The notes beneath the pieces were generated by a model. The model had not been told where the DNA came from and did not search any database. It saw only the letters and a list, made by a program, of their open reading frames with translations. A stretch of 33,227 nucleotides of DNA from a virus. Its lineage: Duplodnaviria; Heunggongvirae; Uroviricota; Caudoviricetes. Made by a program: the position numbers and the translations under genes. Positions 926-26,894 of this stretch are shown piece by piece. Location: IMG/VR virus record IMGVR_UViG_3300045450_000131, positions 1-33,227 of that record; one strand, written 5' to 3'. Every line of letters begins with the position of its first letter. Within the stretch, counting starts at the first letter, position 1.

Positions 926-933
926 TATAAATA
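926..933 (+). promoter_or_regulatory. T4-type late promoter TATAAATA
   Basis: Exact TATAAATA about 30 nt upstream of the ATG at 965; matches the T4 gp55-dependent consensus. Confidence 0.7.
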
Positions 934-964
934 CGCAGGATAAACGATGTGAAAGAAGGTGCGT

Positions 965-1720
965 ATGATTAAACTAATCATTGCATTTATGGCTGCTATT
1001 ACCTTAACTGCGTGTGGCGCGAAAGTTGATGAAAGTAAGATAGACTTGACAGAAGAAGAGCTGCAATTTATTGCCTCCCACCCGACTGTTACCTGGGCTT
1101 TGGAAGATAACCGGCCTCCTTATATTTTTGTGGAGAATTCCAATATTAAAGGATTGTCATTTGACTACTTAGTTTTAATTTCTAAAAAGACAGGTATAAA
1201 TTTCCAGCCAATTAGAACTGCTAATTTCTTCAACTCTATCGAGGCACTTAAAAATAAGCAGGTAGATGTAATGACTGCATTACGACCAACGCCATACAGA
1301 GCAGACTTTATGGGATTTACCCCACCTATCGCGTATAATGGTGGAGTTTTTCTTTTCAGGGTAAATACATTGCCGCGGTCTCCAATGACGACTGGTATTA
1401 GAAGAGGAGAAGCGGTAAAGGACTATCTCAAAGAGAGATTCCAAGATATGAAAATTGTAGAAGTAGAAGATGATGAGCAATCAATTTCTTTATTACAGAA
1501 AGGTCTACTTGACGGTTCAGTAATGGATGCTGGAAGCGCTAATTATCTCATGAATCACGCTGCCATTAAAATGAGAAAGGCGGCCATTAATTTTGACTAT
1601 CCGTACTCTTTCGGGTATCACAAAGACAATCACATCTTGGGGTCAATTTTAACTAAGGCAGTTATCTCAATATCTAACGATGATAAGAAAACACTGAATC
1701 AACAATGGATTAAGGATTAA
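965..1720 (+). CDS. Lipoprotein with type-2 periplasmic solute-binding (SBP family 3, BvgS/EvgS sensor-like Venus-flytrap) domain
   Basis: Signal peptide with lipobox LTAC. IDLTEEELQFIASHPTVTW...RPPYIF...GLSFDYLVLISKKTGINF is the typical start of PBP2 sensor domains of histidine kinases. No kinase or transmembrane output domain follows. Confidence 0.85.
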   Translation: MIKLIIAFMAAITLTACGAKVDESKIDLTEEELQFIASHPTVTWALEDNRPPYIFVENSNIKGLSFDYLVLISKKTGINFQPIRTANFFNSIEALKNKQVDVMTALRPTPYRADFMGFTPPIAYNGGVFLFRVNTLPRSPMTTGIRRGEAVKDYLKERFQDMKIVEVEDDEQSISLLQKGLLDGSVMDAGSANYLMNHAAIKMRKAAINFDYPYSFGYHKDNHILGSILTKAVISISNDDKKTLNQQWIKD

Positions 1721-8102: not shown

Positions 8103-8459
8103 TTATTGCCCCTTTAAAAATAAACTTGCACGGTAGTTGAGTAACTTACGAAAGTTATTATAACCTGATTGTGCGCAATTTAACATCATTACGTCGTGGA
8201 TTCTATCTGGATTCAAAGTAGGGTAGTCAAAGATAACTGCAGCAATTCCCTCAATCGGAAACTCTACTTCTGACTTACTCATATTTTGCCTTATCGCGGC
8301 TTCAGAAACACCAACGCCTCTGACACCTGCTAAATCTTTTGCATATGATGCAACTTTTTGACAGTCTGACAGAGGCTTTGGAGGTGGTGTACTTGTACAC
8401 CCTGAAATCACTAAAGCTAAAATTGCTACTTGATAACCAACTTTTGGTTTGAACAGCAA
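8103..8459 (-). CDS. Lipoprotein of unknown function
   Basis: Hydrophobic stretch and lipobox ISGC, Pro-rich linker, two further Cys. Confidence 0.7.
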   Translation of the reverse strand: MLFKPKVGYQVAILALVISGCTSTPPPKPLSDCQKVASYAKDLAGVRGVGVSEAAIRQNMSKSEVEFPIEGIAAVIFDYPTLNPDRIHDVMMLNCAQSGYNNFRKLLNYRASLFLKGQ

Positions 8460-8782
8460 TCTAGCAACTCCTCATAAACGGTTGGGTCAATATTAATACA
8501 TCCCTTGGTAATCCTGCGCTGCTTTGGGTCTTTCGACTTTAGGCGTTCAGCTCGCTTTTCCCAAGGACGTAAAGTCCATACTCGGTGAATGGCATAGATT
8601 TCATGCTTATCTTCTTTGAATTGCAGAACATCACCGCCATACCCTGGGCTTTCAACCAGCCTCTGCTGAAGGGTAAATTCTCCACGAGGAGTATCACCAC
8701 CGATTAATACCGGATGACATGTTTCAATGTCATTCTTCATAAAGCAGATAGTAGCTAACGCTAAGCTAACGATTACCGACAT
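8426..8782 (-). CDS. Minimal L,D-transpeptidase (YkuD)-like catalytic domain
   Basis: TPRGEF, YAIH and ITKGCINI correspond to the YkuD H...[ST]xGCxN active-site motif; N-terminal hydrophobic segment. Confidence 0.7.
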   Translation of the reverse strand: MSVIVSLALATICFMKNDIETCHPVLIGGDTPRGEFTLQQRLVESPGYGGDVLQFKEDKHEIYAIHRVWTLRPWEKRAERLKSKDPKQRRITKGCINIDPTVYEELLDCCSNQKLVIK

Positions 8783-9210
8783 TATTCGCGAGGCTTCTTA
8801 ATTGGAACTTCCTTGTAGATCACAGGACCTGGAACTACAACTTCCTTCACGATAACAGATGGTGCTGGTTCAATCTTTGGGGTGAAGAACAGGTATTCAC
8901 CACGACCCATTTTAGGAGACCAATGATAGCCTTCACATGTAACATTGTTTTGTGAAACGCGCTTACATGGAACTTCAATAACACGTGGGTAAATCACCCC
9001 TGCGGTTGGATAGTATGGCATGTATTGAGGTGCATGGAAGATGTCATTCTGCAGCACCGGAATTGCATGCTCTACACCGCCTCGGCCTGGCGTACCAGAA
9101 CCAAGAGTTTCGCGATCAATACCCACCATTGGTTCATTGCGCAGAATTTGAGCATTCGCACCGATAGATGCAAAGGCCAGGATTGCAAGTAGATACTTCA
9201 TGGTGGTCAT
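8782..9210 (-). CDS. Exported protein of unknown function
   Basis: Sec signal (KYLLAILAFASIGANA), Cys pair, Val/Pro-rich tail ending KKPRE. Confidence 0.75.
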   Translation of the reverse strand: MTTMKYLLAILAFASIGANAQILRNEPMVGIDRETLGSGTPGRGGVEHAIPVLQNDIFHAPQYMPYYPTAGVIYPRVIEVPCKRVSQNNVTCEGYHWSPKMGRGEYLFFTPKIEPAPSVIVKEVVVPGPVIYKEVPIKKPRE

Positions 9211-9214
9211 CCTT

Positions 9215-9901
9215 TTATCGTGCTAGTGGAGCTAGACCCATACGCTGACGCACATAAGGATCAGTTGGTTCACCGGCTAGTGGAGCAGTAGTTACGCCAC
9301 GTGCAGCAGCTTGTCGTTCAGCTTGTTCAGTTTGTGGACAGACAAAACCAGTGATTTCTAAAGCTTTGCGGTTGGCGCTGTCTTCACACATACGCGCCAT
9401 TGCAGCCGCCTTCATACCCATGTTCCAGAGTTCACGGGAGTTCTTGAGCATCACGCAGTTTGCATCAGTCCAAGTAGTACCAAAGCCAACACCAAAGCCA
9501 GGACCGTTTGCTGAACCTGAGGTTGAACCCATACAGGTGTCATTTGAAGTTGTTAGTGGTGGGCCTGAAACTGAAGGCACGTTCTTTACGGTTTGTGAAC
9601 CCGAATAAACAATACGTTGTGTTTGATCACCAGAGACAGTGCTCTTTACATTCTGATCAATAGTGCCAGTTGTAACTGACTCGGTCTTGCCTGGCTGTGT
9701 GAAGGTAATTGCTTGGGTGTTGCCAGCATTCGAAGCTGTAGCATCGGCACCGCTTTTGACTTCGTTTGTAGAAACTGTTCCAGTGCCAAAACCACCAGCT
9801 GTTGGGCTGCCAATATTTGCTGTGTTGTTAGTAGTGGTATTTTGTGCAAATGCCCCACCGAAGGACATAGCAAGAGCCGCAACTAGAATAACTTTTTTCA
9901 T
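9215..9901 (-). CDS. Exported protein, Thr/Asn-rich N-half plus conserved 4-Cys C-terminal domain
   Basis: Sec signal MKKVILVAALAMSFGGAFA. Domain DTCMGSTSG...TTWTDANC..LKNSRELWNMGMKAAAMARMC resembles an uncharacterised proteobacterial secreted family. Confidence 0.8.
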   Translation of the reverse strand: MKKVILVAALAMSFGGAFAQNTTTNNTANIGSPTAGGFGTGTVSTNEVKSGADATASNAGNTQAITFTQPGKTESVTTGTIDQNVKSTVSGDQTQRIVYSGSQTVKNVPSVSGPPLTTSNDTCMGSTSGSANGPGFGVGFGTTWTDANCVMLKNSRELWNMGMKAAAMARMCEDSANRKALEITGFVCPQTEQAERQAAARGVTTAPLAGEPTDPYVRQRMGLAPLAR

Positions 9902-9929
9902 CTTAATAAATCCTAATGTAGGTGAGACA

Positions 9930-9955
9930 GAGTAAGAGGGTAAGCCCTCTTACTC
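9930..9955. terminator. 11-bp intergenic hairpin (attenuator or mRNA stabiliser)
   Basis: GAGTAAGAGGG-TAAG-CCCTCTTACTC; no U-tract on the minus strand, so it may allow read-through. Confidence 0.5.
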
Positions 9956-9964
9956 ACTTGCCGA

Positions 9965-10747
9965 TTAACGTGCGGAAGAAACGAAACCGTTAACGCTGGA
10001 GACTGCGTTGCCGTTAGCAGCGCTGTTCTGTAGAACGCCACCGACTGCAGAACCAGTGGAGGTGGAGGTGTTGAAGGTTGTACCTGCCTGGACGTTAACG
10101 CTGGTAGCAGCGTTCTTCACGTCGCCTTGGCTAACTTGTGTGCCGATACCGATTGGGGATAGAAGACCCTTAACAACGGTAGTGGTCTTGATGTCAGCAG
10201 AAGCCTTGCTGTCGAAGGCGGAAAGCTGACCACCGACTTGGGTGGAAGTGCCATTGCCAACAGAGACTGCACCAGTTGCAGTGTATGCATTGGAAGCACC
10301 GCTAACGGAACCTTGTGGGCCAGTACCAGTGGTGTGGAAAGCACCAGCACCTTGAGCAGCTGCAGTAGCAACACCGCCAGCAGCACCGAAAGCAGTTGCA
10401 CCACCAGTTGTGGAGGTAGCAACATCAGTGCGGTTGTAAGTTTCGGTAACACCGCTGACACCGACGTTGCCCGAGCGGGTGTCAGTGAAAGTGGTTACGC
10501 GATCGAAACCGGAACCGGTACCAGTTGAAGTAATGCTACCACCAGCAGCACCTTGAGTAGCAACTTCAGTACGAGCGTAGCCGACATTACCAACGGAAGA
10601 AACTGCTGAACCAGTGCCGTTTGAAGAAACAGCAGCGGTGGAACCTGAGACTAGAGTGTTAGCACCAGAAGCAGCTGCATTAACACCGTGTGCGGAAGCA
10701 ACACCAGCGGCTGCGAAGATAGCTAGAGCGATTAGGGACTTTTGCAT
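9965..10747 (-). CDS. Exported Gly/Ala/Ser/Thr-rich low-complexity protein (adhesin/curlin/S-layer-like)
   Basis: Start moved to ATG 10747 (AAAGGA RBS); Sec signal MQKSLIALAIFAAAGVASA; no Cys or Trp; pseudo-repetitive small-residue sequence. Confidence 0.75.
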   Translation of the reverse strand: MQKSLIALAIFAAAGVASAHGVNAAASGANTLVSGSTAAVSSNGTGSAVSSVGNVGYARTEVATQGAAGGSITSTGTGSGFDRVTTFTDTRSGNVGVSGVTETYNRTDVATSTTGGATAFGAAGGVATAAAQGAGAFHTTGTGPQGSVSGASNAYTATGAVSVGNGTSTQVGGQLSAFDSKASADIKTTTVVKGLLSPIGIGTQVSQGDVKNAATSVNVQAGTTFNTSTSTGSAVGGVLQNSAANGNAVSSVNGFVSSAR

Positions 10748-10870
10748 GAGAATTTTCCTTTGAGATTGCAATTTCAAAAGATAACATCAGAAGCTTCCGA
10801 CGAAATGTCAGATCTGTCATCAGAGTTATCAGCTAGTTTACCAACAATGTATCTTTATTAGTTGGTAGAA
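10748..10870 (-). promoter_or_regulatory. Structured ~120-nt 5' leader
   Basis: Hairpin TACCAAC/GTTGGTA, a three-way junction closed by GATAAC/GTTATC, and a near-perfect 20-bp palindrome next to the RBS. Confidence 0.5.
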
Positions 10871-16378: not shown

Positions 16379-16386
16379 TATAAATA
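16379..16386 (+). promoter_or_regulatory. T4-type late promoter TATAAATA
   Basis: Exact box 27 nt upstream of ATG 16414, with GGAG RBS between. Confidence 0.7.
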
Positions 16387-20672: not shown

Positions 20673-21944
20673 TTATGGTCGCCAAAGTTCAATATTCTCA
20701 GGACATTTATTTCTATTAAGAGATGCCTTCAGGTCCATCACAACTAACTTATGATCTAACCCCTTACCATAGTTCTGGATAGTTGTCCACCCATCATCTA
20801 AAAATTGCTTGTGTGGCACCGCTAAGATGACGGCGTGGGCACCTTGATATTGATGTGGATTGATGTCAATGTTGTATTCGTGCTTTACCTCTTCTTTATT
20901 AGCTAGAGGATCAAATACCTGAATTGTTACTCCATACTGCTTTAGTTGGCAAATAGCATTAAACACCTTCGAGTTCCTAATGTCGGGTACATCCTCCTTG
21001 AAGGTGCAACCTAAAATAGTAACGATGGGGGAAGCGCCTAGCATGCGATTCCTTGCCATCAGCTTAATTAGCTGATCAACGATAAAGGACGACATGCTGT
21101 CGTTAATTTCCCTTGATGATAATATTACGTCAGCCACAAATCCCTGCACAGCTGCCTTGTGCGATAGGTAGTATGGGTCAATTGAAATGCAGTGGCCTCC
21201 TACCAATCCAGGCCTAAACTTTTGGAAATTCCACTTTGAACCAGCAGCGTCAATTACGTCATTGGTATCTACACCGAGCCGGCTGAAGATATGACTTAAC
21301 TCATTCATCAAAGCAATGTTTACGTCCCGCTGGGTATTCTCAATTACCTTTGCAGCTTCTGCAATCTTAATGCTTTGGGCTCGATATGTTTTAGTAATTT
21401 TGCCATAGATGTAGTCTAAGTTATTCAAGGTGTAGTTACTATCACCAGCCACAATTTTGGTGGTTGTAGTAAGGGTGTGTTCCTTGTCACCAGGGTTAAT
21501 TCGTTCTGGTGAATAACCGACGAAGAAGTGTTCCTTCCACTCTAAGTTAGATTCTTCTTCTAAAATCGGAACGCAGATTTCTTCTGTCACGCCTGGATAA
21601 ACAGTTGACTCATAAACCACTAAGTTGCCTGCTGTGAGGTGTTTACCAACCATCTTAGTGGCTGACTTCACTGGGTTTAAATCTGGGACGTTACCCTCCG
21701 CGACGGGTGTGGGGACGGTAATAATGTAGGTGTCTATTTCGGCTAAATCAGCTTCATTGCTTGACAGCTTCACAGTACTGTTCATGAGGGCAAAGCGACT
21801 GATTTCGTTCGTTCTATCGTGACCGCTTTTTAGTTCAGATACTCTAGATTCATTAATGTCATAACCAACAACCTTGAAGTGCTTGGCAAGCTCAACGGCA
21901 AGAGGGCAACCAACGTAGCCCAAACCAATAACCGCAATTTTCAT
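20673..21944 (-). CDS. UDP-N-acetylhexosamine C6 dehydrogenase (TviB/WbpO-like)
   Basis: GLGYVG Rossmann loop, YESTVYPG, YSPERINPG, GGHC catalytic motif, KEDVPDIRNS. Confidence 0.92.
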   Translation of the reverse strand: MKIAVIGLGYVGCPLAVELAKHFKVVGYDINESRVSELKSGHDRTNEISRFALMNSTVKLSSNEADLAEIDTYIITVPTPVAEGNVPDLNPVKSATKMVGKHLTAGNLVVYESTVYPGVTEEICVPILEEESNLEWKEHFFVGYSPERINPGDKEHTLTTTTKIVAGDSNYTLNNLDYIYGKITKTYRAQSIKIAEAAKVIENTQRDVNIALMNELSHIFSRLGVDTNDVIDAAGSKWNFQKFRPGLVGGHCISIDPYYLSHKAAVQGFVADVILSSREINDSMSSFIVDQLIKLMARNRMLGASPIVTILGCTFKEDVPDIRNSKVFNAICQLKQYGVTIQVFDPLANKEEVKHEYNIDINPHQYQGAHAVILAVPHKQFLDDGWTTIQNYGKGLDHKLVVMDLKASLNRNKCPENIELWRP

Positions 21945-21945
21945 T

Positions 21946-22554
21946 TTATATCCTAACTATATTTTTTAATATGGAAGTTCGCGCAGTATGAGGTAGTGAC
22001 TCCAAATATTCTAGTGAACTGTGTATATCTATCAAGTGATGCTCCTGCAGAATCTTATCTGACAATTCCCACCATTTTAAATTAAGCAACCTTTCAATGA
22101 TTAAATCGTTAAATCTAAACTTAATGACCCTTGCCGGCACACCGCCAACGACTGCATAATCTGGCACATCTCTATTTACAACCGCCCCAGCGGCAATTAC
22201 AGCACCATTCCCAATCGTAACCCCATTCATGATGATTGCATTATCACCAATCCAGACGTCATTTTTAATTAAGACCAACATGCCATCTTTAACTCTCTTC
22301 ACAGTGTTAGAATCAGAGGTGAAGGCGGAACTGGTGCTCAGTAAGTTCATGTCATGATGGCCAGTACCAATTGTAATATTATTACCAAATGAGCAATAAC
22401 GCCCAATGTAAACGTTACTGTGAATTCTACCACTATTAACATAAGAGTGCTTTAAAATTCTGACACCTGGATTAATGTGAGTATTACCAACCCTAATCGG
22501 CGGCTCATAGAAGAATGGACTTCTAGGCAGAACATAATAACTTAAGCCATTCAT
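21946..22554 (-). CDS. CatB-related hexapeptide-repeat (LbH) O-acetyltransferase
   Basis: [47 protein letters not shown]; start moved to ATG 22554. Confidence 0.9.
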
Positions 22555-22555
22555 A

Positions 22556-23812
22556 TTAATCAAATAGAGGGTGAAAAACAAATAACATATCTTTGTTTTT
22601 AACTTCACGTGTAAGCGTAATTTCTGTAATGTAGCCGTTTATTTCCCGTCCTGAATATGGCTGATCACCAGATTGTAATTGCGGATAGACATACTTTACT
22701 TCACCGATGTTGTCACACCAGAAAACGCCAACTCGACAATCATATAGGGGATAACCAGGCTGCAGGAAGTGCAGTGCCTTCTCTGGCACGAACATAAAAG
22801 TAATTGGCGCATTGCTGAGTGTTACTTTAAATTGCGCGCTCTCAGTAGATTGCTTCATCAGCTTCTTTAACTCAATAAGCTGTTGTGTCTTTTCTAAAAT
22901 TTGGAATGAAATTTTAGACATTTCTTGTTCAGCAACTGTAATTTCAGCCATAATGCGGTGTGAGTCCCACAGAAGCTGTAAATCCTTGCTGCTGATCTTC
23001 ATGCTCCTATCATATGGAGACGGAGGCACATAAGGCTGTGGTATAGGCTGATATGGTGGTGTATATTCCAATTCTGGTAATTTTTGCACCTCTGGTGGTT
23101 CGTATTGAGGTGCAACATATGGAGCTGGTTCTAGAATAGGGGTCTCGTTCTCTGGCAAAGGATCGAAATTAGTTCTCTTAAATGTATTAGTGTCATTGTA
23201 GATATTGTCAAAGAGTAACTTGCGATGATGTCTAGCATCAGCAAATGACGCCTTAAGCTCATTAATTTGATTTTTCAATTCATATAGGTCATTCGGAGAA
23301 ATGCTCTTCGCGATCTCCTGCGTGCTAATTAGCATCTCTAGGTGGTTGGCTAGAGCTAACACTTCAAGTGCCTTGCTTCTATCTGGCAAGTCAATATTTG
23401 AGAGCGGACCCAACCTTTCAATCTGGACAGGATTCAAGTTAGACTCTTTTTCTAGCCTAACGATAGATTTAAACAGCTCATTATATAATACTGCGTGGCG
23501 CTGAACTTGGCCCTTTAATGTCCTGTCGAGCTTTAATACCCTCTCATCCAGTTGGTTAATAGTCTGAGATAAAGACTGTACATTGGAGTTAAATGATACC
23601 ATCTTATCGTCAGTCTTTAAAATTCTGACAGGTATACCCCACCTTATGCTATTATCAAAGTACATTCTCATGTAGAAGTAGCTTCCCAAATAAGCAATAA
23701 GAGTAACACATAATGAGATAATGACGATTCTAATGGCTGGAAAGTACTCACCATTACGATAGTAAACCCACTGTATTAACGCGACAACTACAAAGATTAA
23801 GAACCACAACAT
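22556..23812 (-). CDS. Membrane-anchored coiled-coil protein, possibly HlyD/membrane-fusion-like
   Basis: Two N-terminal TM segments, long heptad regions, Pro-rich linker, C-terminal beta domain (FVP...PG.PLYDC....FWC..IG.V). Function is inference. Confidence 0.55.
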
Positions 23813-23868: not shown

Positions 23869-25371
23869 TTAGTCCTTAGTCAGAGTAACCAGAATAAGTT
23901 CTTCCATTGCGCGGGTGGTTGCAACATAGCACAGGTTGTCTTCCTGTTCCAGTTCCCACTGCTTCTTAGCGAAGCCAGACGGGCCAGTTTGGAGCCAAAA
24001 GACACGCTTCCATTCCAGGCCCTTGCTGCGGTGGATAGAGCAAAGCAATACCACCGGCTTCTTGCTTTCTTCCTGGCCAAAGATTTCATCAATCTCGAGT
24101 TCAATTGCCTGCTGAGGGCTGAGCTTGGTGTTTTTGGCCATCGCCCGAGTAATGATGACCTTCAAGCACTGCAGTTTGTCCATCAGATCATCAGCTTGAC
24201 GGTTCTTCTCCTGTGCAAGCAGCTTCTTGATTTCACGCTCTTCAAACTCTTCCAGCTTGGTAATCAGGGCATCAAACGTCTTGCACTTCCAACGACCAGC
24301 AAGCTTCTTCAGACCACTAGCAATTTCACGGCCTTCAATACGGGCCGGGATACCAGCACCAATAAATTGGTAGACGTATTTAATGAGGGGAGCATTGAAG
24401 CGGGAAACAATTGCATCACCAACTTTAGCGACCTTCATCAGTTCGGTGTCTACCAGTTGGCTGACAACACCTGGGGCTGCAGTGGGCGAGCACTCAATGT
24501 GATTCACCCACTGCTTTGCATGTGCAACGACATTCTGTGGGCACCGGAAGGTGAAGGACAAGGGCAGCTTGATTGCATTGACTGCATTGCCGATAAGTTC
24601 CAAGCTGTTAGCATCAGCACCGGTGAAACCATAAATTGCCTGATGCTTGTCGCCGACTGCAACCAGTCGGCCATTTTGCTTCATCATCAGCACTGCGAGG
24701 TAACGGCGGGAAGCGTTGGTGTCTTGGGCTTCATCAAGTAGAACCCAGTCATACTCGTCAATAGAGACGTTGTGGTAGAGGGGTGCGAAGATCATGTCAT
24801 CGAAATCGATCACGCGGTTATTGTTAGCAATAGAACGCTTGAAGACATCTTTTGCCAAGTTGATAATAACATCGGTGTTGTCAATACCGGATTTCTCATC
24901 GAAGCACTCTACGCCGAAGTGATCGATAAACTTAATCCATTCACCACGGTCACTCTCATTGCTATTATAGCCAAGAGCGGCCTGCTTCGCATAGGAAACC
25001 AGCTGCAATACTGGGCCTTCAAACAAACCATAGCCGAAGATTCCCTGGGTGACCATGCGGTAGATGTCGCGGCACTTGTCATTGTTGACTTGAACTCGAG
25101 GTGCCGCCTTACGCCATGCTTTAAAACCGGCGGCGTGCATGGTAGAAATATTCAGGCCATTCTTGAGCTTAGGAGCACGGTCAGAAATCTCAACGGCGAT
25201 CTTTTTGTTGTAGGCACCGAAGAAGATGGTGCCCTTCATAATTTTGAGAGCTTCGATAAGGGTGGTAGTTTTGCCGCTACCAGCAACTGCTTCCAAAACA
25301 CACGAACCTTCACCATCCTTAATCCAGTTGAAGAAGGTGGTCTGTTGTGCGGAAGGAAGAAATTTGCTCAT
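23869..25371 (-). CDS. Superfamily 1 UvrD/Rep-like helicase
   Basis: AVAGSGKTT, DEAQD, VGDKHQAIYGF, FRCP, SIHRSKGLEW and YVATTRA motifs. Confidence 0.93.
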   Translation of the reverse strand: MSKFLPSAQQTTFFNWIKDGEGSCVLEAVAGSGKTTTLIEALKIMKGTIFFGAYNKKIAVEISDRAPKLKNGLNISTMHAAGFKAWRKAAPRVQVNNDKCRDIYRMVTQGIFGYGLFEGPVLQLVSYAKQAALGYNSNESDRGEWIKFIDHFGVECFDEKSGIDNTDVIINLAKDVFKRSIANNNRVIDFDDMIFAPLYHNVSIDEYDWVLLDEAQDTNASRRYLAVLMMKQNGRLVAVGDKHQAIYGFTGADANSLELIGNAVNAIKLPLSFTFRCPQNVVAHAKQWVNHIECSPTAAPGVVSQLVDTELMKVAKVGDAIVSRFNAPLIKYVYQFIGAGIPARIEGREIASGLKKLAGRWKCKTFDALITKLEEFEEREIKKLLAQEKNRQADDLMDKLQCLKVIITRAMAKNTKLSPQQAIELEIDEIFGQEESKKPVVLLCSIHRSKGLEWKRVFWLQTGPSGFAKKQWELEQEDNLCYVATTRAMEELILVTLTKD

Positions 25372-25435: not shown

Positions 25436-26032
25436 TTAATTTAGAATTCCAGTACCCTTTGGTGGTGTAAAATTAAAGTGATCTGCCGAGAATGTAATAT
25501 TTCTTTGAATTTGATAAAAATTAATAATGATTGTGTTATCAAATACGTCTTGAATCTGCATAATGACTGGCATGTTATTCTTCATTGCGACTCTGACCAT
25601 CTCAATCATGCCGTCATTGACTTTGGGTAACACTCTTACCCATTCTAGCCCATCATTAGATATGTCTTCAGACAAATTATATGATTTCGTAATGTCATTG
25701 CCAAATAAAATCATGGCTGGTGAATTACTAGCCGTCTGCTTAGCGGACTTTTTAGTTAACTGATTAAGGTCCTTGTCATAAATGAACAAGGTTACACCAT
25801 CAGATTGTAATGTCTGCTCAAATGGCAAACGGTATTCCCAAATAAACTTTCCAGGCTTTGCAAATTCAAACATGCCGGCGGCAGTTTTATTGCCCTTGCC
25901 GCCTTTGGTGACTTGGGCAAAGTTACCTTTTGCCGAATTTGTAGTAGAAGTGAATTGTTTAAGTTGCTCAACTGCACCTGCAAATGAAGAAGTGGAGAGT
26001 GCAAGTAAAAATATTGCTAACAGCTGTTTCAT
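25436..26032 (-). CDS. lolA: Periplasmic lipoprotein chaperone LolA homolog
   Basis: Sec signal; GNFAQV, GMFEFAKPGKFIWEY..PFEQ.LQSDG..LFIYDKDLNQLT, SPAMILFG, FNFTPPKG span the full LolA fold. Start ATG 26032 after AAGGA. Confidence 0.9.
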   Translation of the reverse strand: MKQLLAIFLLALSTSSFAGAVEQLKQFTSTTNSAKGNFAQVTKGGKGNKTAAGMFEFAKPGKFIWEYRLPFEQTLQSDGVTLFIYDKDLNQLTKKSAKQTASNSPAMILFGNDITKSYNLSEDISNDGLEWVRVLPKVNDGMIEMVRVAMKNNMPVIMQIQDVFDNTIIINFYQIQRNITFSADHFNFTPPKGTGILN

Positions 26033-26068
26033 AACATCCTTTATAAGAGTAGGATTTTTCACCACTCT

Positions 26069-26075
26069 TATTTAG
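26069..26075 (-). promoter_or_regulatory. Late-type box CTAAATA upstream of lolA
   Basis: GCTAAATAAG is identical to the 10-mer at 4875-4884. Confidence 0.45.
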
Positions 26076-26110: not shown

Positions 26111-26497
26111 TCAATCAAATACGGTGATTTCCACTCGTCGTGGTTTAACGGTCGTAATTTCATCATCCCATTCCGTGCCTTCATGAGAGGTATAGAATCC
26201 CTCAACGCTAACATAGCCAAGAGCAGATTCGATTTGATCAAATTCGTTTGCTTTAGAGCCTCCAGGAGCAATCGCAAAGACGTGACAAACATACTCACCT
26301 TGCCCTTCACCCCCTCCTTCACATTGAACTTCAATTAGTTCTAGATTAAAGGGGTATCGTTCAAGATAACACCGGTTATAAATTAGGTCTCCTACTTCCA
26401 TGTCATTAAAGTCCAGCCACTCTTGTGCCCACTTTGCAGGGTCTTGTTGAGCTAGCTCTTTGTCTGCGTCAAAGTCATTACCAAATTCGTATTCCAT
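26111..26497 (-). CDS. Acidic phage protein with GGGEGQGE motif, paralog B
   Basis: EGGGEGQGE...ALGYV...GFY.S..GTEWDD shared with 26499-26894. Confidence 0.8.
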   Translation of the reverse strand: MEYEFGNDFDADKELAQQDPAKWAQEWLDFNDMEVGDLIYNRCYLERYPFNLELIEVQCEGGGEGQGEYVCHVFAIAPGGSKANEFDQIESALGYVSVEGFYTSHEGTEWDDEITTVKPRRVEITVFD

Positions 26498-26498
26498 A

Positions 26499-26894
26499 TT
26501 AATTCCATTCATTAAATTTAGTCACCTGGACTACTTTAGGATAAACCACTCGCAGATCGTCATCCCACTCGGTGCCATTATACGAGCTATAGAATCCACC
26601 GAGCTTTACATAGCCAAGTGCACCATTAATTTGTTGAATATCATTAATTAATGAGCCCTTAGGCGCGATTGCAAAGATTCGAATTACCTTTTCGCCTTGA
26701 CCTTCACCCCCACCCTCGGCTTGAACTTCAAATACGCCCAAGTCAAATGGATAATCCGCATTACCAGTATCACCCTCTCCAAGCGATGTGGTATTAATTT
26801 GATTCAGTTTCATCCATTGCTTGACCCACTCTACAGGGTCAGTGATTGCGAGCAGCTTATCTTGTTCAAAGTCCTTACCAAATTCGAATGCCAT
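26499..26894 (-). CDS. Phage protein with GGGEGQGE motif, paralog A
   Basis: Tandem paralog; AGGAGAG RBS. Confidence 0.8.
   Translation of the reverse strand: MAFEFGKDFEQDKLLAITDPVEWVKQWMKLNQINTTSLGEGDTGNADYPFDLGVFEVQAEGGGEGQGEKVIRIFAIAPKGSLINDIQQINGALGYVKLGGFYSSYNGTEWDDDLRVVYPKVVQVTKFNEWN

What the first reader, a model, noticed from the sequence alone, without database searches (positions are those of the whole stretch)
25436..26075. Phage-encoded LolA lipoprotein chaperone
Seen: a full-length LolA with signal peptide and a late-type box. The window also encodes two lipoproteins (965 and 8103) without Asp at +2. Established: LolA is an essential bacterial periplasmic carrier taking lipoproteins from LolCDE to LolB, and it is not a usual phage gene. 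O-spanins and several exclusion factors are OM lipoproteins. Inference: the phage boosts or redirects Lol trafficking for its own lipoproteins. The sequence looks closest to betaproteobacterial LolA, which is a host clue.
Basis: partly seen in the sequence, partly recalled or inferred. Interest (0 to 1): 0.7.

Follow-up and report, generated by a model that had tools for sequence, protein, structure and literature searches.

The report
Jumbo phage carries host-derived LolA
A giant T4-like phage encodes an intact, secreted copy of LolA, the bacterial carrier that ferries lipoproteins to the outer membrane; its closest sampled relative captured a different LolA from another bacterial family, so these phages appear to gain from supplying this host function, but nothing has been tested.

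Summary
Window 25436-26032 (minus strand) encodes a 198-aa LolA with a Sec signal peptide. It clears the Pfam and TIGR00547 cut-offs and models as a LolA barrel (TM 0.81/0.86 to Xanthomonas LolA).

It is a real phage gene, not host contamination:
- The 162-kb record has a T4-type capsid gene.
- The flanking genes are syntenic in related jumbo phages.
- The gene's GC3 (36%) matches the phage (41%).

The nearest bacterial LolAs are Oxalobacteraceae-type, at 42-47% identity.

New here: of 25 records in this phage clade, only this phage and its closest sampled relative (G001, 350 kb) carry LolA. The two copies sit at different loci, are 39% identical, and nest in different bacterial clades (Oxalobacteraceae-type versus Sphaerotilaceae). 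An AU test rejects one phage clade (p = 0.016). Two independent captures are the likeliest history.

All eight GenBank "phage" records with a LolA match are host DNA or unverified, and I found no paper on phage LolA.

The "late-type box" is only a degenerate CTAAATA. Both lipoproteins are real candidates without Asp at +2.

Most likely this is a working carrier that uses the host's LolCDE/LolF and LolB. Its purpose (boosting traffic, serving phage lipoproteins, or blocking the pathway) is inferred, not shown. The scan's notes record no canonical phage LolA in other genomes.

The parts
25436..26032 (-). LolA coding sequence (198 aa from ATG; an in-frame GTG at 26065 would add 11 residues)
   Evidence: PF03548 113.5 bits, TIGR00547 182.2 bits over its 112 cut-off, phrog_25624. 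AF2 model pLDDT 85.5. Foldseek top hits are all LolA structures, best 8ORN at TM 0.81/0.86.
25979..26032 (-). Sec-type signal peptide, residues 1-18 (MKQLLAIFLLALSTSSFA|G), no lipobox
   Evidence: Read from the sequence. It aligns with the signal peptides of bacterial LolAs. Model pLDDT is below 50 over residues 1-16.
26037..26041 (-). Shine-Dalgarno AAGGA, 4 nt upstream of the ATG
   Evidence: Read from the sequence.
26069..26075 (-).
   Evidence: Perfect TATAAATA occurs 13 times in the genome, 12 of them upstream of genes. CTAAATA occurs 17 times, only 7 upstream of genes, so this box is weak evidence.
959..1720 (+). Candidate client: SBP_bac_3 (Venus-flytrap) lipoprotein, lipobox LTA|C, +2 Gly, with a perfect TATAAATA 25 nt upstream
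   Evidence: PF00497, 56.3 bits.
8103..8459 (-). Candidate client: small lipoprotein, lipobox ISG|C, +2 Thr, Pro-rich after the Cys
   Evidence: only a weak Rz-like spanin match, E = 8e-4, over the signal region.
23869..25371 (-). Downstream neighbour: phage DNA helicase, syntenic in relatives (58-62% identity). It fixes one edge of the LolA insertion.
   Evidence: phrog_1967, E = 9e-101.
26111..26894 (-). Upstream neighbours: two tandem paralogs (phrog_18295). In G001 they abut the helicase with no LolA between.

Best explanation
The gene encodes a working periplasmic lipoprotein carrier (LolA). A T4-like jumbo phage captured it long ago from a Burkholderiales host of the Oxalobacteraceae type and has kept it under selection. 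After Sec export and signal-peptide cleavage, the soluble protein would dock on the host's inner-membrane LolCDE/LolF transporter, take up triacylated lipoproteins in its hydrophobic cavity, and pass them to host LolB at the outer membrane. The phage encodes neither LolB nor a LolC/E-type protein, so it must rely on the host's. The likely benefit is to keep up or raise outer-membrane lipoprotein traffic in the infected cell, including the phage's own lipoproteins. Shown: identity, intactness, fold, phage residence, old age of the capture, and a second independent capture in the closest sampled relative. Inferred: lipoprotein binding, use of the host partners, and the benefit to the phage.
For: Family and fold.

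Residues: 28 of 35 family-wide conserved columns are kept, within the range of diverged bacterial LolAs (78-83%), and most replacements are conservative. E. coli P44, F47 and W49 are kept. R43 is Lys, as in some bacterial LolAs.

Phage residence: Gp23 capsid gene at 285 bits. Flanks are syntenic in G001. The slot in G001 is empty, with no remnant.

Age and selection: GC 37% and GC3 36% match the phage (42% and 41 +/- 8%), against GC3 81-95% in six of the seven Oxalobacteraceae lolA genes sampled. The terminal branch is 1.44 changes per site against a median of 0.3, yet the frame is open. My rough inference is that so much change without a stop codon needs purifying selection.

Recurrence: G001 has its own LolA among phage genes, 39% identical, at another locus. 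It nests with Sphaerotilaceae at 100/99 support, while the window's copy nests with Oxalobacteraceae and Burkholderiaceae at 100/98. The AU test rejects a single phage clade, p = 0.016.

Dependence on host: no LolB or MacB_PCD domain in G000 or in the 97%-complete G001.

Docking on the periplasmic domain of a Duganella LolC/F: weak support only, score 0.48 against a best control of 0.01. The mark was reached by 58 of 80 solved complexes and 2 of 110 mismatched pairs, but at 0.60 or under by only 7 of those 80 solved complexes and by both mismatched pairs that passed. Runs agree in at least 93% of contacts, and partner pLDDT is at least 81. A similar complex (6F3Z) is solved, so the score may reflect likeness only.
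Against: There is no functional evidence of any kind. The branch is about five times the median length, which would also fit a changed function. Two non-conservative replacements fall at columns conserved within the sample (G165D, D195G), although E. coli differs at both columns too. I found only two candidate phage lipoproteins in the 162 kb held. LolA lacks the clear late promoter that the lipoprotein gene at 959 has, so co-expression is not supported. LolA was not found in 23 other records of the clade, including ones 87-98% complete, so it is dispensable for this kind of phage. Host LolA is a stable periplasmic protein (background knowledge), so why more would be needed is unclear.
Confidence: 0.6

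Rival explanations
1. Decoy or dominant-negative LolA. The phage protein docks on host LolCDE/LolF, or takes up lipoproteins, but does not hand them to LolB. This would block outer-membrane biogenesis (the BAM and Lpt lipoproteins, Lpp) to weaken the envelope for lysis, stop new receptors appearing, or shut down the host.
For: The very long branch (1.44 against a median of 0.3). Lys at the position of E. coli R43, where the R43L mutant is defective in transfer to LolB (my background knowledge; structures 2ZPC and 7Z6X are among the fold matches). Non-conservative G165D and D195G. Capture of a host-matched LolA in each phage would also suit a protein that has to engage the host's machinery.
Against: Lys at this position also occurs in ordinary chromosomal LolAs (P0017, P0022). 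F47, the site of the known E. coli dominant-negative F47E mutation, is unchanged. G001's LolA keeps 34 of 35 conserved columns and looks like an ordinary LolA. pI and charge lie within the donor clades' ranges.
Confidence: 0.13
2. Re-purposed LolA-fold carrier. The barrel now binds another hydrophobic cargo (a lipid, a phage membrane-active peptide, a signal molecule) or acts as a sensor like RseB, no longer as a Lol-pathway component.
For: The LolA fold is used for other ligands: RseB, LolA-superfamily proteins and EPDR1 appear lower in the fold search. Fast evolution. Three clustered residues are shared only by the two phage proteins, including Ile where 63 of 72 bacterial LolAs have Phe and none has Ile.
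Against: It scores above the equivalog cut-off of TIGR00547. The best fold matches are all true LolAs, with RseB far behind (TM 0.50). Universal LolA positions are kept. The shared columns vary in the wider family (E. coli has Ser, Leu, Asn).
Confidence: 0.12
3. Neutral passenger. A host gene picked up by chance and not yet lost, with no role in infection.
For: Jumbo phages carry many host-like genes. LolA was not found in most of the clade.
Against: Base composition is fully phage-like, and the protein has diverged by about 1.4 changes per site with the frame, signal peptide, ribosome-binding site and conserved residues all intact. A second independent capture in the closest sampled relative argues for a recurring benefit.
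Confidence: 0.1
4. Artefact. The contig is a chimera of phage and host DNA, or the record is a provirus with host flank.
For: All eight LolA hits in GenBank 'phage' records turned out to be exactly this.
Against: GC is uniform along the 162 kb. LolA's GC3 of 36% matches the phage, not the typical donors. It is flanked within 64 and 78 bp by phage genes syntenic in G001. It is at most 46% identical to any of 5.8 billion clustered proteins. The bacterial ftsK-lolA-rarA-serS context is absent.
Confidence: 0.02

Closest known systems
Bacterial LolA (E. coli b0891; structures 1IWL, 6F3Z, 7Z6W; Xanthomonas campestris 8ORN; Pseudomonas aeruginosa 2W7Q)
   Same: Same family by sequence (TIGR00547 over its cut-off). 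Same length and signal peptide. Same unclosed beta-barrel with helical lid (TM 0.81/0.86 to 8ORN). Keeps P44, F47, W49, the YD-DL-Q motif and the C-terminal F-F-PP-G.
   Different: Encoded by a phage, outside the ftsK-lolA-rarA-serS neighbourhood. At most 46% identical to any bacterial LolA. Terminal branch about five times the median. Lys for R43. AT-rich phage codon usage.
LolA of the related jumbo phage G001 (IMGVR_UViG_3300045996_002337, L106:1468-2070, protein P0122)
   Same: Also an intact, secreted LolA inside a T4-like jumbo phage whose capsid protein is 90% identical. Also matches its own phage's GC. Shares N139, I143 and A149, which are rare in bacteria.
   Different: Different locus (next to M23 peptidase, PAAR and exonuclease genes). 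Only 39% identical. Nests with Sphaerotilaceae LolAs (53-59% identity) rather than Oxalobacteraceae. Much less diverged (34 of 35 conserved columns kept).
Host-derived auxiliary genes and morons of large phages (for example cyanophage photosystem genes)
   Same: A single host housekeeping gene inserted between conserved phage genes, not found in most relatives, matched to phage composition, and presumably supporting a host process that limits phage yield.
   Different: The process is envelope lipoprotein sorting, not metabolism. I found no report of a phage gene for the Lol pathway in the libraries searched.
PHROGs family phrog_25624 (unknown function)
   Same: The protein matches it at E = 2e-40 over its whole length, so LolA-like proteins already sit unnamed in a phage/prophage protein catalogue.
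   Different: I could not inspect the members of that family. All the LolA matches I could inspect in GenBank phage records were host DNA or unverified, so the PHROG may rest on such sequences.

Membership tests
LolA (outer-membrane lipoprotein carrier; PF03548 / TIGR00547) | Sequence scores above the curated family cut-offs over the full model length | tested here: met
   PF03548 113.5 bits against 23.6, profile positions 2-165 of 165. TIGR00547 182.2 against 112, positions 2-199 of 202. The narrower model NF000661 scores 203.9, below its 255 cut-off.
LolA (outer-membrane lipoprotein carrier; PF03548 / TIGR00547) | Soluble periplasmic protein: a cleavable Sec signal peptide and no lipobox Cys (this separates it from LolB) | tested here: met
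   MKQLLAIFLLALSTSSFA|GA; no Cys anywhere in the protein. Judged by eye; no predictor was available.
LolA (outer-membrane lipoprotein carrier; PF03548 / TIGR00547) | Unclosed antiparallel beta-barrel with a helical lid over a hydrophobic cavity | tested here: met
   AF2 model pLDDT 85.5, pTM 0.78, with 11 main strands (plus a short C-terminal one) and short helices. The first 21 listed Foldseek matches are LolA structures, best TM 0.81/0.86. I could not inspect the cavity lining because no coordinates were available to me.
LolA (outer-membrane lipoprotein carrier; PF03548 / TIGR00547) | Residues characterised in E. coli LolA: R43, P44, F47, W49 | tested here: met
   Alignment A4: K, P, F, W. 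Lys for Arg also occurs in chromosomal LolAs P0017 and P0022. The functional meaning of these residues comes from my background knowledge.
LolA (outer-membrane lipoprotein carrier; PF03548 / TIGR00547) | Accepts lipoproteins from LolCDE/LolF and delivers them to LolB | not testable with these tools
   Only a predicted interface with a stand-in Duganella LolC/F periplasmic domain: weak support, 0.48 against a best control of 0.01; the mark was reached by 58 of 80 solved complexes and 2 of 110 mismatched pairs, but at 0.60 or under by only 7 of those 80 and by both mismatches that passed; possibly from memory of 6F3Z.
LolA (outer-membrane lipoprotein carrier; PF03548 / TIGR00547) | Usual proteobacterial neighbourhood ftsK-lolA-rarA-serS (typical but not defining) | tested here: not met
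   The neighbours are a phage helicase and phage paralogs. Bacterial relatives show the usual neighbourhood.
T4-type late gene | TATAAATA box shortly upstream of the start codon | tested here: not met
   Only CTAAATA at 26069-26075. Perfect boxes precede 12 other genes. No sigma-70-like promoter or terminator isolates the gene on the minus strand.
Host-derived auxiliary gene (moron-like insertion) of a phage | Sits between conserved phage genes, is missing from the same slot in relatives, and its nearest homologues are cellular | tested here: met
   The slot in G001 holds the paralog pair directly followed by the helicase. Present in 2 of 25 clade records. All nearest homologues inspected are chromosomal bacterial genes.

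The most novel reading that the evidence does not exclude
Jumbo phages of this lineage repeatedly capture the LolA of whichever host they currently infect, because the phage protein has to mesh with that host's LolCDE/LolF and LolB in order to take over the lipoprotein-sorting pathway. That takeover could prioritise phage lipoproteins or, as a natural protein inhibitor, jam outer-membrane biogenesis. The three residues shared only by the two phage copies (N139, I143, A149) would then be convergent changes that alter cargo handling.
Probability: 0.15. Interest if true: 0.8.

Novelty: new member of a known kind. Interest (0 to 1): 0.55.

Why it matters
The Lol pathway is essential in Gram-negative bacteria and is an antibiotic target. 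I found no description of a phage that encodes part of it.

If this protein is a working carrier, it shows that lipoprotein traffic can limit a large phage's success. It would also give a naturally diverged LolA that still has to fit host LolCDE and LolB, which is useful for mapping which surfaces matter. If it is a blocker, it would be a natural protein inhibitor of the pathway.

The two captures from different bacterial families also give host predictions for two uncultured jumbo phages: Oxalobacteraceae-type for this phage and Sphaerotilaceae for G001.

The work also shows that LolA "hits" in public phage records are mostly host DNA, which matters for any database survey.

Tried and rejected
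- IMG/VR scans with the window's LolA alone and with a Burkholderiales alignment found no relative. The patterns are specific to that LolA type, and the window's own record is withheld.
- A scan built on G001's type recovered only G001, which serves as a positive control.
- A broad class-level alignment was too diverse to make search patterns, so LolAs of other types in IMG/VR were not surveyed.
- A megablast of 13 kb of the window against GenBank phages found nothing.
- Literature searches for LolA with phage terms returned only chance word matches such as 'LOLA award' and 'Lolans'.
- A recombination tract between the two phage lolA genes was looked for and not found: nucleotide identity is at most 0.6 in any 15-codon window.
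- The o-spanin idea for 8103-8459 rests only on a weak match to the signal region, and its upstream neighbour looks YkuD-like rather than like an i-spanin. Left open.
- My strict lipobox scan of all ORFs found only 959-1720 and one implausible 72-aa ORF. 8103-8459 fails that filter because of a Gln in the h-region, so it is the weaker of the two candidates.
- pI and charge showed nothing unusual.
- I did not try to predict a complex of LolA with a phage lipoprotein, because LolA binds the acyl chains, which the tool cannot model.

Full report
**What is there**

The finding's coordinates cover one minus-strand ORF, 25436-26065. The likely start is the ATG at 26032, which has AAGGA four bases upstream and gives 198 residues. 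The protein matches:
- Pfam LolA at 113.5 bits (cut-off 23.6);
- the NCBIfam equivalog TIGR00547 at 182.2 bits (cut-off 112), over nearly the whole model;
- PHROGs family phrog_25624, of unknown function.

The first 18 residues, MKQLLAIFLLALSTSSFA, form a Sec-type signal peptide. There is no Cys anywhere in the protein, so it should be a soluble periplasmic protein. This was judged by eye.

An AlphaFold2 model built on a 25-sequence alignment is confident (pLDDT 85.5, pTM 0.78). Its best structural matches are all solved LolAs: Xanthomonas 8ORN at TM 0.81/0.86, then Pseudomonas, Francisella, E. coli and Yersinia. RseB and other LolA-fold proteins lie far behind.

**Is it really a phage gene?**

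The window is the first 33 kb of a 162-kb IMG/VR virus record that CheckV rates about 45% complete. That record has a T4-type major capsid gene (Gp23, 285 bits) and uniform GC, 38-47% in 5-kb bins.

LolA lies 64 bp from a phage DNA helicase (phrog_1967) on one side and 78 bp from a pair of phage paralogs on the other. These neighbours, and about fifteen more genes around them, are syntenic in the 350-kb relative G001.

The gene's GC (37%) and GC3 (36%) match the phage genome (42%; gene GC3 41 +/- 8%). Six of the seven Oxalobacteraceae lolA genes sampled have GC3 of 81-95%; the exception is Oxalobacter at 55%.

No protein among 5.8 billion clusters is more than 46% identical. Every near relative I inspected lies in the bacterial ftsK-lolA-rarA(-serS) arrangement (E. 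coli). A read-level check could not be run.

**How unusual is it?**

A tblastn search of 50,697 GenBank phage records gave eight records. All are host DNA or unverified:
- the two Acinetobacter "phage" contigs carry rplU-rpmA-lolA-serS;
- the five Ralstonia records are UNVERIFIED_ORG inovirus calls; the one I fetched is 31 kb long;
- the faecal "Bacteriophage sp." contig carries ftsK-lolA and MoeA.

Pattern scans of 2.9 million IMG/VR contigs for Burkholderiales-type LolA found only G001. LolAs of other types could not be surveyed. Full-text searches found no paper on a phage LolA, and the scan's own notes hold no canonical phage LolA elsewhere.

**A second, independent capture**

I gathered relatives through the helicase and the capsid protein and searched 24 of their records for PF03548. 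Only G001 has a LolA. G001 is 97% complete and its capsid protein is 90% identical to this phage's. Records that are 87%, 94% and 98% complete have none.

G001's copy is intact and carries a signal peptide. It lies among phage genes (M23 peptidase/endolysin-like, PAAR, exonuclease, structural proteins), at a locus unrelated to the window's. The window's slot in G001 holds the paralog pair directly followed by the helicase, with no LolA remnant.

The two phage proteins are only 39% identical. G001's is 53-59% identical to LolAs named Caldimonas, Aquincola, Aquabacterium and Albitalea; the two of these I looked up, Aquincola and Caldimonas, are Sphaerotilaceae. The window's is 42-47% identical to Massilia, Duganella, Pseudoduganella, Janthinobacterium and other Oxalobacteraceae.

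I built a careful maximum-likelihood tree of 74 LolAs. One unpublished genome was left out, and two class-level loci gave no usable sequence. In that tree:
- G001's copy sits in a 15-row clade with the Sphaerotilaceae sequences (support 100/99);
- the window's copy sits in a 33-row Oxalobacteraceae plus Burkholderiaceae clade (100/98);
- within that, it falls in the Oxalobacteraceae-type group (92/88), with no finer resolution.

Forcing the two phage proteins together costs 43.6 log-likelihood units (AU p = 0.016).

Caveats:
- The window's branch is long (1.44 against a median of 0.3).
- I ran the AU test after seeing the quick tree, although phage monophyly is the natural prior hypothesis.
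- Only 45% of this phage is held, and the region matching G001's LolA locus is not in it. A second, G001-type copy in this phage cannot be excluded.

Each gene matches its own phage's GC (37% in a 42% genome; 49% in a 50-51% genome), so both captures are old.

**Is it likely to work?**

Of 35 columns conserved in at least 85% of the 72 bacterial LolAs, the window's protein keeps 28. This is the low end of the range shown by diverged but ordinary bacterial LolAs (78-83%). The seven changes are R59K, V92L, F118Y, F143I, G165D, D195G and V196I. G001's protein keeps 34 of 35.

Aligned with E. coli LolA, P44, F47 and W49 are kept. R43 is Lys, which also occurs in chromosomal LolAs. At the G165 and D195 columns E. 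coli itself differs. pI is ordinary.

A branch this long with an open frame, an intact signal peptide and a ribosome-binding site points to purifying selection. This is my inference; no close relatives exist for a dN/dS test.

Neither phage encodes LolB or a LolC/E-type periplasmic domain, so a working LolA must use host partners. A predicted complex with the periplasmic domain of the LolC/F protein of a Duganella genome (its gene is followed by lolD) gave weak support only:
- score 0.48 against a best control of 0.01;
- the mark was reached by 58 of 80 solved complexes and 2 of 110 mismatched pairs, but at 0.60 or under by only 7 of those 80 solved complexes and by both mismatched pairs that passed;
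- runs agree in at least 93% of contacts, and partner pLDDT is at least 81.

A similar complex (6F3Z) is solved, so this may only reflect likeness.

Both lipoproteins exist and lack Asp at +2:
- 959-1720 is an SBP_bac_3 lipoprotein (LTA|C-G) with a perfect TATAAATA 25 nt upstream.
- 8103-8459 is a small Pro-rich lipoprotein (ISG|C-T). It is the weaker candidate and has only a faint spanin-like match.

Whether +2 rules from E. coli apply in Burkholderiales is unknown to me.

The "late-type box" upstream of LolA is CTAAATA, not TATAAATA. The perfect octamer is a real signal in this genome (12 of 13 copies lie just upstream of genes), so its absence here means late co-expression with the lipoprotein is not supported. 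No sigma-70-like promoter or terminator sets the gene apart on its strand, so it may be read through from the genes upstream.

**Host clue**

The single best hit (46%) lies on a 40%-GC bacterial contig. Its RarA is 84-89% identical to named Undibacterium proteins, which are Oxalobacteraceae. That GC is close to the phage's 42%. This is a lead, not a placement: the tree does not resolve the donor within the Oxalobacteraceae-type clade.

**An unexplained detail**

The two phage proteins share three clustered residues that are rare in the 72 bacterial sequences: N139, I143 and A149. At the I143 column, 63 bacterial sequences have Phe and none has Ile. There is no DNA-level tract pointing to recent exchange, and E. 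coli differs at all three columns. Convergence and a trace of older shared ancestry both remain possible.

**Verdict**

The gene is a true, old, selected phage LolA of Oxalobacteraceae-type origin, and the closest sampled relative holds an independently captured one.

I rate a working carrier that depends on host LolCDE/LolF and LolB at about 0.6. Rivals: a pathway blocker 0.13, a re-purposed carrier 0.12, a neutral passenger 0.1, and an artefact 0.02.

It is a new member of a known protein family in a setting I found no report of. Interest is moderate to good.

Noticed in passing
L106:1468-2070 (-) = G001:C1:81629-82231: The closest sampled relative (350 kb, 97% complete) has its own intact LolA with a signal peptide, at an unrelated locus beside M23 peptidase, PAAR and exonuclease genes. 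It is nearest to Sphaerotilaceae LolAs.
   Followed up: yes
window 25585-25618 (LolA residues 139-149): N139, I143 and A149 are shared by the two phage LolAs but are rare or absent in 72 bacterial LolAs, even though the two proteins sit in different clades. There is no DNA-level recombination tract.
   Followed up: partly
window 8103-10777 (-): A run of exported proteins: the small lipoprotein, a YkuD-like (L,D-transpeptidase-like) protein scoring below its cut-off, and three proteins with signal peptides and no family. This may be an envelope-remodelling or lysis-related cluster.
   Followed up: partly
window 20673-23812 (-): Just downstream of the helicase lie a UDP-glucose dehydrogenase-like gene, a phrog_16087 protein and a 418-aa multi-pass membrane protein with no family. 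This may be a surface-polysaccharide module.
   Followed up: no
whole record (G000), e.g. window 927-934, 16379-16386: TATAAATA occurs 13 times in 162 kb, and 12 copies lie in sense orientation within 80 nt upstream of a gene start. T4-type late promoters are clearly in use.
   Followed up: yes
GenBank CAKLQH020000002.1, CAKLQF020000003.1, MT837408.1, ON170132.1 and four related records: Records labelled as phage carry plain bacterial chromosome at the LolA match (rplU-rpmA-lolA-serS; ftsK-lolA with MoeA) or are UNVERIFIED calls. They would inflate any naive count of phage LolA genes.
   Followed up: yes
L005 (JGI 3300061568 contig, 30.5 kb): The bacterium with the best-matching LolA has only 40% GC and is Undibacterium-like by RarA (84-89% identity to named Undibacterium). 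This is unusually low GC for Oxalobacteraceae and close to the phage's 42%.
   Followed up: partly
G000 versus G001 (L089, L107): The two phages have capsid proteins 90% identical, yet genome GC is 42% in one and 50-51% in the other. Together with the LolA donors, this suggests hosts from different families.
   Followed up: partly
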